In this document: piece after piece, positions 59,305 to 62,582 of the stretch
Position numbering within the stretch: position 1 is the first letter of the stretch
Layout: the number at the start of each line of letters is the position of its first letter
Source: a virus
Lineage: Duplodnaviria; Heunggongvirae; Uroviricota; Caudoviricetes
Reading direction: 5' to 3' (one strand)
IMG/VR virus record: IMGVR_UViG_2718218168_000001
Span: 1-64,000 of that record
Length of the DNA stretch: 64,000 bases
Program-made: the position numbers and the translations under genes
Notes under the pieces: model-generated
The model's database searches: none
What the model was told of the DNA's origin: nothing
Seen by the model: only the letters and a program-made list of their open reading frames with translations

Positions 59305-62300
59305 ATACCCAAAACGTCATGAGCTACACCTCGAGTGTCCCCCTTACAAGACACAGAACGTCTGGCAAAAAGAGGTTCCACTCTGAAGCCACTGTCATGA
59401 TAAAGCTCTCTGATGTTTGGCGCGCCACTGTTAGTAATGAGAACCTTTGCACCTCGACGATGAGCATCCGTCAACAGAGACACCAGGCGTTTTTGCTCTT
59501 CAAACTTAAAGTCATGACCGGAATAGTTCGTGAATCCCTCTGTATTTGGAAGCGGTTCATACGGCGGATCGCAAAAGATGACATCTCCTTCTCCGGCAGC
59601 TTCAATCACCGCTGCAAAATCACCGCATACAAACTCAGACCGCCCTTCCGCACCGAGGAAGGCTTCCATCTCCTGTAATGGGAAATACGGAGTTTTATAC
59701 TTCCCATAACCGACATTGAACTCACCGGCCTGGTTGTAACGCGTCAATCCGTTAAAACAATGTCGGTTCAGGAACAAAAACGCCGCTGCGCGATGTAAAT
59801 CATCATAGACTTGTTTGTTAAACGCATTCCGTACTGCCAGGTATCCTTCCTGTGTGTTGTAGTCCTGGAAGAAACGATGTGCCAGAGTGATAAGTGAATG
59901 CGCCTCGCGTTGCAGAGTCTTGTAAAAGTTAATCAGGTCAGCATTCACATCATTTAGCAGATTTTCCTGGTATCCGGCATTCATGAAGACAGCTCCGCCA
60001 CCAACGAAAGGTTCAATCAGGCGCTTCCCTTCTGGCAAATAGCGAAAGATTTGTTCCAGAACACCAAATTTTCCACCAGCCCATTTGAATATGGACCGTT
60101 CGAATTCTGTCGCTGGTTTAACTTTTCGCTCTTTTGTTTCACTTCCTTCTTTCTGCCGACATACGGCCTTAGTAATCCGATCGCCAATCCAGCGCATTAC
60201 TGGTATTGCCATACTATTGCCGATCGCTTTGTAACGCGGTCCGTCAGCTGCAAGCATCGCGGCCTCTTCTTCGCTTAAATCTGGATAGTGATTGCGGAGA
60301 TATGCCAGTTCATCTGAATTAACTTTTTTACGCTTTTCCGTCGGGATCAACGTATGCCCATCAGGAAAACCTTGCAGCCTTTCACATTCGACAGGGGTAA
60401 GACGGCGGACAGCTACTTCTGCGTTTCTTACTTCATAGCAAACAGCTGTTGGATTTTTAGCCATTAGAGATGGTGAAGTATTCTTAGTTGCAGCATGTTG
60501 TGTACCGCTCATACGCTCAGGAAAAGCCAATGTAACAAGATGCTCATGGCTTTCTTGCTCACGTGCCCGCAATGTACCATGCCCTTCTGACCAAAAACCT
60601 GCTCCTGTGCTGCTAAAAACGGCAAGGTCAGTGGCATCTTTAAAATCTCTTGCCTTTACTGTCGATGCGGTTTCATCGTCAATATATTCCCCAAATGCCG
60701 CCATCCTGAAACCGTTTACGGCTTTCGTCGATTTCATACCGGGAGACATGCCAGCGTGTAGGCATGGATTTAGGCTTTCGCCACTGATTGCAGCGCCATT
60801 TGCAATAATGGCGGAAGCGATTTCCTTCTTTTTTCGGCTCGGCGCAATATTCCGGCGCACGCCTTCGAACTCAAAAAGTACCGTTGCGGGATCGAGGTCT
60901 GTTCGAGCACTTGCGACAACAAACACGCGTCGGCGTCGTTGTGCCACTCCGAAGTATTGGGCATCAAGGATTCTCCAGGCCACCTTTCGCTGCGGTCCAT
61001 AAATACAACCACACTGCGGCCACTTTGGAACATGGCAACCGGTTTTGCCATCCCACCGCCAGAACGCGTTGCTTTTTCCTGATTCAGGTCGATCACCTGG
61101 TTCAAATGGCACATCTTCTCCAGCCAATCCGGCAAGGAAACATCCGAAGGCGTTATCTGCCAATGACAAGACTCCTGGGACATTTTCCCAGACGATAACG
61201 GCTGGTTTGAGAAATGACTCAGCCCGTTTGTCGTCAATTGCATTTGCAAGCTCCACATACTTTAAAGTTAGCGCGCCACGCTCATCATCAAGCCCACCAC
61301 GTAATCCCGCGATACTGAATGCCTGACAGTTATGGACCACCGCACCATTGAGGATATAGGAATGATCACCTTCGACTTCTATGTTGTATACAGTATCTAG
61401 GCCTACCGATTTAAACTCTTTGACTGTTCGTAAAAGCATTCCATGAGCCAATCTTGATTTACGTGACAATTTCTGCGGGCAGATTGTTACCTGATAATAA
61501 TCCCGTTGATTTACCACGCGATCCTCGATCACTTTTTTGGGCTCAACTTCAATAAAGCTGACCGAAGAAACATAACCACAAGTCTGTGACAACCCCGCAA
61601 CGCCCCAAGCAAGCGCAGGACTAACACTATTAATTCTAAATCCCGCTTTACCACTTGGTGTCCCATCAGTATCAAGATAGCCTTGTAAAAACACATGACG
61701 CAATGGATGCGACATCACCCATGCAGGGATACGTTTAGCATGGCTTAACTCGCCAAAATGTTCATTAAGCCAATTGGCATAACACGTATCATTCAAGGTT
61801 ACTTTGATGCTCCCTCGGATTTCGCTTGCCACGGAAAACATGTTTTCTGGTATGTGGCAATGAAACTTTCTCAATTTCTGGCAATTTATGCCAAAAACAA
61901 CCGCCTTCTTAGATTTACCTCTCCATCTCCTAATATATCCATCGCCTACATAAGCGCCCGCAAGATACATAGCCTGTTCTTCAGACAAGAACCGAGAACA
62001 AATATCTGGAGATGCAATATTGAAATTAGTTAGAGCGCACCATTGATATCCCGGCATATCACATGCTGCTCGCCATTCCGGTTCAGACAACAACTCTCTC
62101 TTAAAATATGTGCCATTTTTCCGGGTGTTTTGGGCTTTCCACCGAACAGCCAGGAAGGGATGGTCATTGGTTGTTCTTATACCTAAAGGCTGCCCAACGG
62201 CATTAAGTAACCCCGTATTAGCTATTTTTGAACCAACTCTTTTTACTTGTTGTAACCGCCCGAGATGACTGACTACGTAATCGCCAGGGCAAACATCTTC

Positions 62301-62582
62301 TATTGGTTTATAACCATTTTTACAAAGAACCATATGCCCCGCGGTAAAACATGGTGTTCCCCCGACGAGCACGTCAGGGGATTCGATTTCCCCAGCCAAG
62401 ACTTTTTTGGCAAGTTTTGTCATGTCGCCAAGGTTGGCGACATGGGGCCAGCGGAGCGCAAGAACGGCAGATGGAAAAGGCTCGATTTCAGCAAACCACG
62501 CCGGACGCATACCCAACGGTTCCCAGGCAATACTCGCGGCTTCAATTCCACTGCAAACAGATCCGTAGCACAGCTCTTTCAC
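59295..62582 (-). CDS. dmt: Dmt bifunctional DNA methyltransferase (C5-cytosine and Dam-like N6-adenine domains) interrupted by an intein
   Basis: 1095 aa; N-terminal C5-MTase motifs ([12 protein letters not shown] split, ENVPG), C-terminal Dam-like motifs (KWAGGK, DPPY); 754 aa without the insert, the size I recall for P1 Dmt. Confidence 0.88.
61329..62351 (-). mobile_element. intein with LAGLIDADG homing endonuclease, inside dmt
   Basis: 341 aa (residues 78-418): Cys1 (CFTAGHMVL), block B TTNDHPF, two LAGLIDADG motifs ([21 protein letters not shown]), C-terminal [21 protein letters not shown] then Cys+1. Confidence 0.85.

What the first reader, a model, noticed from the sequence alone, without database searches (positions are those of the whole stretch)
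61329..62351. LAGLIDADG intein inserted at the catalytic PCQ motif of the Dmt C5-methyltransferase domain
The 1095-aa dmt ORF carries a 341-aa insert that begins with Cys directly after GGTP and ends ...GAVVHN followed by CQAFSIAG. Removing it restores the canonical C5-MTase motif IV ([12 protein letters not shown]) and gives 754 aa, the length I recall for P1 Dmt. The insert has the full intein signature (Cys1, TxxH block B, terminal His-Asn, Cys+1) and two LAGLIDADG motifs, so it is probably a self-splicing, homing-competent element whose +1 nucleophile is the catalytic cysteine of the host enzyme. I do not recall an intein in P1 dmt, so cytosine methylation here would depend on protein splicing.
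Basis: partly seen in the sequence, partly recalled or inferred. Interest (0 to 1): 0.85.

Follow-up and report, generated by a model that had tools for sequence, protein, structure and literature searches.

The report
Intein splitting P1 Dmt's catalytic motif
The DNA methyltransferase gene (dmt) of this P1-like phage-plasmid is interrupted exactly at its cytosine-methylase catalytic cysteine by an intact, apparently mobile intein (a self-splicing protein element with a homing endonuclease); it is a textbook-type element, present in about a third of E. coli P1-type dmt genes, and not annotated as an intein in any of the public records I inspected.

Summary
ORF 59295..62582 (-) encodes 1095 aa. 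Residues 78-418 (window 61329..62351) form a 341-aa in-frame insert between GGTP and CQAFSIAG. Removing it gives a 754-aa protein colinear with reference P1 Dmt.

The insert is a canonical class-1 intein with a LAGLIDADG homing endonuclease:
- Cys1, block B T61-x-x-H64, H340-N341 and Cys+1 are all present.
- Both LAGLIDADG motifs keep their acidic residue (D137, D229).
- The AlphaFold model is confident (pLDDT 93) and its best PDB matches are PI-SceI and the VMA inteins.

Cys+1 aligns with the PCQ cysteine of M.HhaI. C5-methylase activity must therefore wait for splicing, while the C-terminal Dam domain is untouched.

It is not rare. It occupies 151 of about 490 P1-type dmt genes in complete E. 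coli genomes. It also occurs in Salmonella, E. albertii, phage RCS47 and one laboratory P1vir stock, always annotated only as a methyltransferase. The same intein sits in two dmt classes with different variable regions, and both classes also exist without it. Related inteins (24-55% identity) occupy the same motif IV site in C5-methylases of many bacteria, phages and giant-virus contigs.

Verdict: a new member of a known kind. Splicing and homing are inferred, not shown.

The parts
59295..62582 (-). dmt precursor ORF (1095 aa, GTG start, stop codon included): N-extein + intein + C-extein
   Evidence: 99.4% nt identity to RCS47 dmt; the exact protein is in public databases as 'Dam family site-specific DNA-(adenine-N6)-methyltransferase'
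62352..62582 (-). N-extein, aa 1-77, ending ...DVLVGGTP (C5-methylase motif I through the first half of motif IV)
   Evidence: aligns to M.HhaI residues 19 onward
61329..62351 (-). Intein, 341 aa (precursor residues 78-418)
   Evidence: absent from reference P1 and P7
62349..62351 (-). Cys1 codon (TGT), predicted first splicing nucleophile (block A, CFTAGH)
   Evidence: invariant in alignments A1 and A2
62160..62171 (-). Block B T61-N-D-H64 (TxxH)
   Evidence: T61 and H64 invariant across relatives down to 25% identity
61938..61964 (-). LAGLIDADG motif 1, LAGAYVGDG (intein aa 130-138, acidic residue D137)
   Evidence: D137 and G138 invariant in A2; lies at the end of predicted helix 124-137
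61662..61688 (-). LAGLIDADG motif 2, LQGYLDTDG (intein aa 222-230, acidic residue D229)
   Evidence: Pfam LAGLIDADG_3 covers intein residues 221-282 at 34.5 bits; D229 nearly invariant and G230 invariant; lies at the end of predicted helix 218-229
61329..61394 (-). Blocks F and [23 protein letters not shown], ending in H340-N341
   Evidence: TIGR01443 intein_Cterm above cut-off; phmmer match to the C-terminus of the Spl DnaX mini-intein; N341 invariant
61326..61328 (-). Cys+1 codon: second splicing nucleophile, and the motif IV (PCQ) catalytic cysteine of the C5-methylase
   Evidence: spliced [12 protein letters not shown] aligns with M.HhaI GFPCQAFSISG; that the M.HhaI PCQ cysteine (Cys81) is the nucleophile is established knowledge
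59295..61328 (-). C-extein: remainder of the C5-methylase domain (ENV, QRRR, variable target-recognition region, GNS motif) plus the Dam-type N6-adenine methylase domain
59385..60083 (-). Dam-type (D12 class) N6-adenine methyltransferase domain, precursor residues 834-1066, not touched by the intein
   Evidence: PF02086 E 2e-56; TIGR00571 dam 248.8 bits
63783..63878 (-). Counterpart of the P1 C1-controlled operator/promoter Odmt/Pdmt for the uhr-hrdC-dmt operon (92% identical to P1)
   Evidence: blastn of the annotated AF234172 region against the window
59260..59330 (-). Counterpart of the P1 Oban operators and P1ban/P2ban promoters, overlapping the 3' end of dmt (98.6% identical)

Best explanation
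A class-1, bifunctional (Hint splicing domain plus double-motif LAGLIDADG endonuclease) intein is inserted in the dmt gene of a P1-like phage-plasmid, between Pro77 and the catalytic Cys of C5-methylase motif IV. Proposed mechanism, step by step. (1) dmt is translated as a 1095-aa precursor from the C1-repressed uhr-hrdC-dmt operon. This is shown by sequence and synteny. (2) Cys1 undergoes an N-to-S acyl shift. The thioester is passed to Cys+1. Asn341 then cyclises, assisted by His340 and the block B Thr/His. The result is a 754-aa Dmt with a restored [12 protein letters not shown] motif and a free intein, whose mass I did not compute. This step is inferred from an intact set of catalytic residues and the predicted fold. 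(3) Before splicing the C5-methylase cannot work, because its nucleophile is separated from the rest of motif IV and is engaged as the +1 residue. The C-terminal Dam domain is an independent domain and is probably active in both precursor and product. Both points are inferred. (4) The free intein (or the precursor) cuts intein-less dmt alleles at the GGTP|CQAF-coding sequence when two P1-like elements meet in one cell. Repair from the intein-bearing copy then copies the intein in, together with short flanking tracts. This is inferred from intact LAGLIDADG acidic residues, purifying selection, patchy distribution and flank haplotypes.
For: Anatomy: exact boundaries and the 754-aa remainder, with a colinear break against reference P1. 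Domain models: LAGLIDADG_3 34.5 bits (cut-off 22.5) and Hint_2 28.5 (cut-off 28.4); TIGR01443 25.9 (cut-off 15.6). Fold: AF2 model pLDDT 93.1, pTM 0.90; top Foldseek PDB matches are PI-SceI (E 7e-17), the TliVMA and PhoVMA inteins, PI-PfuI and PI-PkoII. Conservation: C1, T61, H64, D137, G138, K206, G230 and N341 are invariant, and D229 nearly invariant, in relatives down to about 29% identity. Host motif: the spliced sequence aligns with M.HhaI PCQAFS. The NCBIfam dcm score rises from 96.5 (below the 100.65 cut-off) to 116.0 after in-silico splicing. Population: 151 of 5426 complete E. coli genomes carry the intein against 339 with an uninterrupted site, and 132 PLSDB plasmids carry it, including Salmonella and Shigella. 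All 9 alleles compared are open, with pN/pS 0.19-0.57 and no change at a catalytic residue. Mobility or recombination: the same intein (at least 98.5% nt identity) lies in two dmt classes whose variable regions differ by 13-16%, and both classes also occur without it. Silent changes cluster within 22 nt of the site in one intein-bearing haplotype, and CCA versus CCT at position -1 is a fixed difference. Intein GC is 43%, against 55% and 49% in the flanking exteins. Related inteins occupy the same site in many other C5-methylases.
Against: No experiment supports it: splicing, cleavage and homing are all untested. About 69% of P1-type dmt alleles remain empty, although some (M7424, E2863, mip270) differ from occupied alleles at only two positions (-22 and -1) within 30 nt of the site. 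That is not what a very efficient homing endonuclease with frequent co-infection would give. The patchy distribution could come from ordinary homologous recombination among P1-like plasmids without any endonuclease activity. Pfam Intein_splicing is below its cut-off (21.8 against 35.8), Hint_2 only just reaches its cut-off, and TIGR01445 (the N-terminal splicing model) was not reported. The polymorphism sample is small (26 variable codons). C5 activity of P1 Dmt is itself annotated only as 'perhaps'.
Confidence: 0.8

Rival explanations
1. The intein still splices, but its endonuclease is no longer active. The element would persist by vertical inheritance and ordinary recombination among P1-like plasmids, and because imprecise loss would destroy dmt.
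For: 339 empty sites against 151 occupied ones, with near-identical target sequence in some empty alleles. Variation within the population is low, so purifying selection on the endonuclease domain is weakly resolved. This late stage of the homing cycle is common for inteins (general knowledge).
Against: Both LAGLIDADG acidic residues and the conserved Lys206 are intact, and they are invariant or nearly so across relatives of 29-52% identity. The endonuclease domain is predicted with high confidence. No allele among nine has a stop or deletion in it. Mini-intein versions exist elsewhere (P0025), which shows that the domain is lost when it is not maintained.
Confidence: 0.15
2. The insert is a dead, non-splicing insertion. 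It permanently inactivates the C5-methylase half of Dmt and is tolerated because only the Dam half matters to the phage.
For: Only Dam (GATC) methylation by Dmt is documented as important for P1 packaging (review PMC12707154). C5 activity is annotated as 'perhaps'. The reference P1 sequence itself has Trp for Gly in motif IV (LVWGTPCQ), which hints that the C5 half can be compromised. One allele has a frameshift at intein codons 4-5.
Against: All splicing residues are conserved in every open allele and in distant relatives. The C5-domain extein in intein-bearing alleles is still under purifying selection: pN/pS is 0.10-0.44 within a TRD class. All C5 motifs are intact after in-silico splicing. 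The frameshift lies in a G4 homopolymer run in a single assembly and may be a sequencing error.
Confidence: 0.04
3. The insert is an assembly artefact or a chimeric join in this one sequence.
For: None found.
Against: The same 1023-nt insert, at 98.5-100% identity and the same position, is present in 151 complete E. coli genomes, 132 PLSDB plasmids, three named phage genomes and many viral contigs.
Confidence: 0.01

Closest known systems
PI-SceI (Sce VMA1 intein) and the archaeal VMA inteins (TliVMA, PhoVMA), PI-PfuI, PI-PkoII
   Same: Same two-domain architecture, with a Hint splicing domain interrupted by a double-motif LAGLIDADG endonuclease. Same class-1 residue set (Cys1, TxxH, HN, Cys+1). 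These are the best structural matches. Like them, the intein sits in a conserved active-site loop of its host protein.
   Different: Only 11-16% sequence identity. At 341 aa it is smaller than PI-SceI (454 aa). The host is a phage DNA methyltransferase rather than an ATPase, polymerase or reductase. There is no biochemical characterisation.
Inteins in actinobacteriophage DNA methylases (Kelley et al. 2016, PMC5050341; Gosselin et al. 2023, PMC9957025; bioRxiv 10.1101/2025.01.02.630785)
   Same: They are LAGLIDADG-containing inteins in orphan phage DNA methylases, with patchy distribution and evidence of transfer between divergent methylases. The 2025 survey lists C-5 methylases (IPR001525) among the hosts.
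   Different: The characterised examples are in N6/N4 methylases. None of the ten literature searches run here returned a paper describing an intein in P1 or Enterobacteriaceae dmt, or pointing out that the +1 residue is the catalytic cysteine. The actinobacterial-type relatives found here (SPE|...|CTNHS) are only about 29% identical.
The wider set of motif IV inteins of C5-methylases found here (Mannheimia, Metarhizobium, Clostridia, Actinomycetes, cyanobacteria, IMG/VR phage contigs, giant-virus MAGs)
   Same: Identical insertion point (xxP|intein|C(Q/T/K)xxS), homologous intein sequence (24-55% identity), similar length (319-370 aa) and the same conserved residues.
   Different: They lie in single-domain C5-methylases of other lineages. 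The window's copy is in a bifunctional C5+Dam protein of a phage-plasmid. One relative (P0025) has lost the endonuclease, and one (L117) has Ser at +1.
Reference phage P1 Dmt (AF234172 / NC_005856) and P7 Dam
   Same: The extein is 98.3% identical in DNA to P1 dmt. The operon (uhr-hrdC-dmt), operators and downstream tRNA genes are the same.
   Different: The reference alleles have no intein. They carry CCT rather than CCA at the last N-extein codon, plus further silent differences next to the site.

Membership tests
Class 1 intein (Hint-fold protein-splicing element) | Nucleophile (Cys/Ser/Thr) as first residue | tested here: met
   Cys at precursor residue 78; invariant in A1 and A2
Class 1 intein (Hint-fold protein-splicing element) | Block B TxxH motif | tested here: met
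   T61-N-D-H64; T61 and H64 invariant across relatives
Class 1 intein (Hint-fold protein-splicing element) | C-terminal Asn (usually His-Asn) followed by a Cys/Ser/Thr +1 residue | tested here: met
   H340-N341 then Cys; TIGR01443 intein_Cterm 25.9 bits against cut-off 15.6
Class 1 intein (Hint-fold protein-splicing element) | Hint fold | tested here: met
   AF2 pLDDT 93.1; Foldseek top hits are solved inteins, E down to 7e-17. Pfam Hint_2 only just reaches its cut-off (28.5 against 28.4) and Intein_splicing is below its cut-off.
Class 1 intein (Hint-fold protein-splicing element) | In-frame insertion at a conserved host site, absent from close homologues, whose removal restores the host motif | tested here: met
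   Absent from P1, P7 and 339 E. coli genomes; removal restores [12 protein letters not shown] and lifts the dcm model above its cut-off
Class 1 intein (Hint-fold protein-splicing element) | Autocatalytic protein splicing actually occurs | not testable with these tools
   Needs expression and detection of the spliced product
LAGLIDADG homing endonuclease (monomeric, double-motif) | Two LAGLIDADG motifs, each with a conserved acidic residue at the helix end | tested here: met
   LAGAYVGDG (D137) and LQGYLDTDG (D229), at the ends of predicted helices 124-137 and 218-229
LAGLIDADG homing endonuclease (monomeric, double-motif) | Match to a family profile above its curated threshold, and the family fold | tested here: met
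   PF14528 34.5 bits against 22.5; structural matches to I-DmoI, I-SceI and I-Tsp061I over the endonuclease domain
LAGLIDADG homing endonuclease (monomeric, double-motif) | Site-specific cleavage of the intein-less allele | not testable with these tools
   Needs a cleavage assay on the empty P1/P7 dmt site
Mobile (homing) genetic element | Distribution incongruent with the host gene, and co-conversion of flanks | tested here: inconclusive
   The same intein lies in two TRD classes that also exist empty. Silent changes cluster next to the site, and CCA/CCT at -1 is a fixed difference. This is compatible with homing but also with plain recombination.
C5 cytosine DNA methyltransferase (host domain, PF00145 / TIGR00675) | Motif IV PCQ catalytic cysteine plus motifs I, VI (ENV), VIII (QRR) and X (GNS) | tested here: met
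   After in-silico splicing TIGR00675 scores 116.0 against cut-off 100.65; alignment to M.HhaI covers PCQAFS, ENV, QRR and GNS. Enzymatic activity was not tested.
Phage P1 Dmt orthologue | Sequence identity and synteny with P1 dmt (uhr-hrdC-dmt, Oban, tRNA-Asn/Thr downstream) | tested here: met
   98.3% nt identity over the whole extein; colinear flanks; tRNA-Thr and tRNA-Asn at 58469..58622

The most novel reading that the evidence does not exclude
The intein may be more than a passenger, in one of two ways. (a) It could act as a post-translational switch. Both splicing nucleophiles are cysteines, and the +1 cysteine is the enzyme's own nucleophile, so redox state or temperature could set when the C5-methylase half of Dmt becomes active, while the Dam half works from the precursor onward. 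(b) Its endonuclease could serve as a weapon between mutually incompatible P1-like phage-plasmids, cutting intein-less rivals at dmt (marker exclusion). In addition, the motif IV intein of C5-methylases would be one of the most widespread intein insertion sites in phages and giant viruses, and it has barely been described.
Probability: 0.12. Interest if true: 0.7.

Novelty: new member of a known kind. Interest (0 to 1): 0.45.

Why it matters
P1 is one of the most used phages in bacterial genetics, and P1-like phage-plasmids are tracked as carriers of resistance genes. About a third of their dmt genes in complete E. coli genomes carry an intein that none of the records I inspected annotates as such.

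Three consequences follow:
- The gene is systematically mis-described. The intein pushes the dcm model below NCBI's cut-off, so the protein is named only 'Dam family'.
- A laboratory P1vir stock already carries the element. Splicing, homing and the still-unproven C5 activity of Dmt can therefore be tested with standard E. coli tools.
- It points to a large family of inteins specialised on the catalytic cysteine of C5-methylases, across bacteria, phages and giant viruses. That family is a ready data set for studying why inteins settle on active-site nucleophiles.

It does not change what is known about how inteins work.

Tried and rejected
Literature. Ten searches looked for any description of an intein in P1/P1-like dmt or in C5-methylases. 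They found only N6/N4-methylase inteins of actinophages and a one-line listing of C-5 methylase hosts in a 2025 actinophage survey. Several hits were irrelevant: the BASEL, Thermus phage, Halobacteria and B. thuringiensis phage papers. The large intein survey by Novikova et al. does not mention methyltransferases in its main text, and its supplements are not held.

Sequence-only comparison with PDB chains was weak (best E 0.0014, Spl DnaX mini-intein). The structure-based search was needed.

Co-conversion. I first thought four N-flank SNPs (-104, -48, -22, -1) were fixed between intein-bearing and intein-less alleles. With more alleles only position -1 stayed fixed.

Precise loss. I looked for empty sites carrying the intein-type CCA codon and found none in 5426 E. 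coli genomes.

Truncated plasmid hits. One (H196) was checked and is a rearrangement next to an IS1 element. A second (H198) simply runs across the start of its circular record. The others were not examined.

Artefact and ordinary-domain explanations were rejected, because the insert recurs at the same position in many assemblies and close homologues lack it.
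Full report
**1. Observation**

The window carries a 1095-aa ORF on the minus strand at 59295..62582, with a GTG start. My own translation places GGTP at residues 74-77. A 341-aa segment follows (residues 78-418 = window 61329..62351). It starts CFTAGH and ends GAVVHN, and is followed by CQAFSIAG. Removing it leaves 754 aa. All named motifs were re-read at their coordinates.

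**2. Identity of the locus**

The gene is dmt of a P1-like phage-plasmid.
- It is 99.4% identical over its whole length to dmt of phage RCS47, and 99.1% to vB_EcoM-Ro157c2YLVW.
- Reference P1 (AF234172 / NC_005856) matches only 69% of the query, in two pieces. Its dmt is 2265 nt = 754 aa.
- A blastn of the P1 region against the window shows colinearity with a single break at window 62349/61328, which is the insert.
- The neighbourhood is that of P1: rdgC/hrdC upstream, counterparts of the C1 operators Odmt (63783..63878) and Oban (59260..59330), and tRNA-Asn and tRNA-Thr downstream.

**3. What the insert is**

Profile matches:

| Model | Score (bits) | Curated cut-off |
|---|---|---|
| Pfam LAGLIDADG_3 | 34.5 | 22.5 |
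| Pfam Hint_2 | 28.5 | 28.4 |
| Pfam Intein_splicing | 21.8 | 35.8 (not reached) |
| NCBIfam TIGR01443 intein_Cterm | 25.9 | 15.6 |

An AlphaFold2 model was built on an alignment of 15 relatives. It has mean pLDDT 93.1 and pTM 0.90. Its best PDB matches by Foldseek are all bifunctional inteins: PI-SceI (E 7e-17), the TliVMA and PhoVMA inteins, PI-PfuI and PI-PkoII. Free-standing LAGLIDADG enzymes (I-DmoI, I-SceI) follow, matching the central domain.

In alignments with relatives of 25-52% identity, these residues are invariant (A2): Cys1, Thr61 and His64 (block B TxxH), Asp137/Gly138 (first LAGLIDADG motif), Lys206, Gly230 (second motif) and Asn341. Asp229 and Cys+1 are nearly invariant. The two LAGLIDADG acidic residues sit at the ends of predicted helices 124-137 and 218-229, which is the canonical arrangement.

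This is a standard class-1 intein with a double-motif LAGLIDADG endonuclease.

**4. Where it sits in the host enzyme**

The spliced N-terminal domain aligns with M.HhaI. Dmt [26 protein letters not shown] pairs with M.HhaI DILCAGFPCQAFSISGKQKGFEDSRG, and the ENV, QRR and GNS motifs align further on. It is established knowledge that the PCQ cysteine (Cys81 of M.HhaI) is the catalytic nucleophile. The intein's +1 residue is therefore the methylase's own nucleophile.

The NCBIfam dcm model scores 96.5 bits on the precursor, below its 100.65 cut-off, and 116.0 bits on the in-silico spliced protein. This explains why NCBI's pipeline names these proteins only 'Dam family site-specific DNA-(adenine-N6)-methyltransferase'. 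The Dam-type domain (precursor residues 834-1066; PF02086 E 2e-56) lies far from the insert.

**5. How common it is**

- The 1023-nt intein is found at 95-100% identity in 151 of 5426 complete E. coli genomes. Of the 152 places, 147 are on plasmids.
- It is found in 132 PLSDB plasmids: 117 Escherichia (including E. albertii and E. fergusonii), 14 Salmonella and 1 Shigella.
- A 200-nt probe spanning the empty P1 site finds 491 genomes. In 339 of them the site is uninterrupted. About 31% of P1-type dmt genes are therefore occupied.
- The exact 1095-aa protein of the window is on record from 190 contigs.
- None of the records I inspected mentions an intein. Only contig-end fragments get names such as 'LAGLIDADG family homing endonuclease, partial' or 'Hint domain-containing protein'.
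- GenBank OP279344 carries the intein. This is the P1vir stock used in a study of Argonaute nucleases (bioRxiv 10.1101/2022.09.09.507302).

**6. Is it maintained and mobile?**

Nine alleles were compared: the window, RCS47, Ro157c2YLVW, OP279344, two genome contigs, E. albertii, Salmonella and pHNSD133T1.
- All are open.
- They have 26 variable codons (11 synonymous, 15 non-synonymous), and none of the variable codons is a catalytic residue.
- Pairwise pN/pS is 0.19-0.57. This is similar to the adjacent extein within a class (0.10-0.44).
- The numbers are small, but they point to purifying selection on both intein and host domain.

The intein differs by at most 1.5% among these alleles, yet they fall into two dmt classes.

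| dmt class (extein length) | With the intein | Without the intein |
|---|---|---|
| 2265 nt | window, RCS47, Ro157c2YLVW | reference P1 |
| 2019 nt | OP279344, E. albertii, Salmonella, pHNSD133T1 | P7, M7424 |

The variable regions of the two classes differ by 13-16%. So either the intein or the variable region has been exchanged between alleles.

Next to the insertion site:
- Reference P1 and P7 differ from the window by three silent changes in the last three N-extein codons.
- A second intein-bearing haplotype has five clustered silent changes within 22 nt of the site.
- One position separates all 8 intein-bearing alleles compared at the flanks from all 5 intein-less alleles: the last N-extein codon is CCA versus CCT.
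- No empty site with CCA exists in the 5426 E. coli genomes, so there is no sign of precise loss.
- Intein GC is 43%, against 55% and 49% in the flanking exteins.

All of this fits homing with short co-conversion tracts. It does not prove it, because ordinary recombination among P1-like plasmids could give the same picture.

One assembly (CP027223) has a 1-nt deletion in a G4 run at intein codons 4-5 and is annotated as a pseudogene. This may be decay or a sequencing error.

**7. The wider family**

A protein search found inteins of about 50% identity in Dmt-like C5-methylases from other sources, including Mannheimia haemolytica. It found inteins of about 30% identity in actinobacterial-type C5-methylases, and one mini-intein (P0025). 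All are at the same point of motif IV.

Scans with an intein-only alignment gave the following.
- Genomes: 117 confirmed relatives, the best 80 kept. I translated the flanks of 62, and about two-thirds lie at xxP|intein|C(Q/T/K)xxS of C5-methylases. Their hosts include Clostridia, Actinomycetes, Proteobacteria, Chloroflexota, cyanobacteria, Bacteroidota and Verrucomicrobiota.
- Viral contigs: 264 confirmed relatives, with at least 59 of the 68 examined at that same site. These include contigs labelled as giant-virus MAGs.
- More distant relatives sit at other catalytic cysteines: archaeal ribonucleotide reductase (LQQLSA|..|CFVLPV) and IMPDH (GPGSI|..|CTTR). Others sit at a second C5-methylase site after ENV.

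**8. Comparison with the literature**

Inteins in phage DNA methylases are known, but the described cases are N6/N4 methylases of actinobacteriophages (PMC5050341; PMC9957025). A 2025 preprint lists C-5 methylases (IPR001525) among actinophage intein hosts without further detail. None of my ten searches returned a paper that mentions an intein in P1 or P1-like dmt.

That inteins prefer conserved active-site motifs is general knowledge, and it is illustrated here by the RNR and IMPDH relatives. The element is therefore a new, unannotated member of a known kind, not a new mechanism.

**9. Mechanism and confidence**

| Status | Claim |
|---|---|
| Shown | The insertion, its boundaries, its fold-level identity, the conservation of catalytic residues, its frequency, and its presence in different dmt backgrounds |
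| Inferred | That it splices by the standard four-step class-1 pathway |
| Inferred | That C5 methylation requires splicing, while the Dam half does not |
| Inferred | That the endonuclease cuts empty dmt sites and drives homing |

I put 0.8 on an intein that is both splicing-competent and homing-competent, 0.15 on splicing-competent with a dead endonuclease, and a few percent on a non-splicing insertion. C5 activity of P1 Dmt is itself only 'perhaps' in the reference annotation. The documented role of Dmt is GATC methylation for packaging (PMC12707154).

**10. Verdict**

The element is widespread and of a canonical type, so interest is moderate. Its value lies in correcting annotation, in being directly testable in P1vir, and in exposing a very large family of inteins specialised on the catalytic cysteine of C5-methylases.

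Noticed in passing
L004 (AF234172) 1720-1731, equivalent to window ~62352..62363: Reference P1 c1-100 dmt reads GTC TGG GGT ACG CCT (LVWGTPCQ). That puts Trp where the window, P7 and every other allele examined have Gly, in the motif IV lead-in (LVGGTPCQ). The C5 half of the reference laboratory P1 Dmt may therefore be impaired.
   Followed up: partly
L002 (OP279344) 2001-5042: A laboratory P1vir stock (deposited as 'P1 isolate del res del mod') carries the full intein in a dmt with the shorter, P7-type variable region (1013 aa). It is also described as lacking res/mod. So 'P1vir' stocks are not all the reference P1 at this locus.
   Followed up: partly
L009 (NZ_CP027223.1) 1248-4534: An intein-bearing dmt has a 1-nt deletion in a GGGG run at intein codons 4-5. 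This splits the gene, and PGAP calls the N-terminal piece a pseudogene. It is either real decay or a homopolymer sequencing error.
   Followed up: partly
L117 (IMGVR_UViG_2898545487_000004) 1501-2547: A related intein sits at the same C5-methylase site but has Ser, not Cys, at +1 (GTP|...VVHN|SQGFSLAG). It could still splice, but the spliced methylase would lack its catalytic cysteine.
   Followed up: no
L048 and L070 (genome contigs), match at 4001-5020 / 4001-5029: Related inteins are inserted at a second C5-methylase site, directly after motif VI (..WENV|intein|CGA(Y/F)SS). C5-methylases thus have at least two intein insertion points.
   Followed up: no
L051, L055, L057-L064, L074, L076 (archaeal MAGs) and L080: More distant relatives of the same intein sit at other catalytic cysteines: in ribonucleotide reductase of Thermoplasmata/Methanobacteriota (LQQLSA|..|CFVLPV) and in IMPDH (GIGPGSI|..|CTTR).
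   Followed up: no
P0012 / L112 (Mannheimia haemolytica; 578 contigs): A 48%-identical intein lies in a C5-methylase whose C-extein is cut short right after CQ (CQSDKGGTVKAS...stop). The intact-looking intein therefore sits in a truncated host gene, and this arrangement is widespread in M. haemolytica genomes.
   Followed up: no
window 58469..58622 (-): tRNA-Thr(tgt) and tRNA-Asn(gtt) lie downstream of dmt, as in P1. Ro157c2YLVW has an extra tRNA-Tyr between them.
   Followed up: partly
L006-L008 and L004-L005 (intein-less dmt alleles): dmt extein length varies among P1-like elements (2019, 2265, 2289 and 2589 nt). The variation lies in the region between the C5 motifs, presumably the target-recognition domain, which suggests several cytosine-methylation specificities.
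   Followed up: no
L138-L140, L142, L144, L148, L151, L156 (IMG/VR contigs named GVMAG): Contigs labelled as giant-virus metagenome-assembled genomes carry C5-methylases with a related intein (27-31% identity) at the same motif IV site.
   Followed up: no
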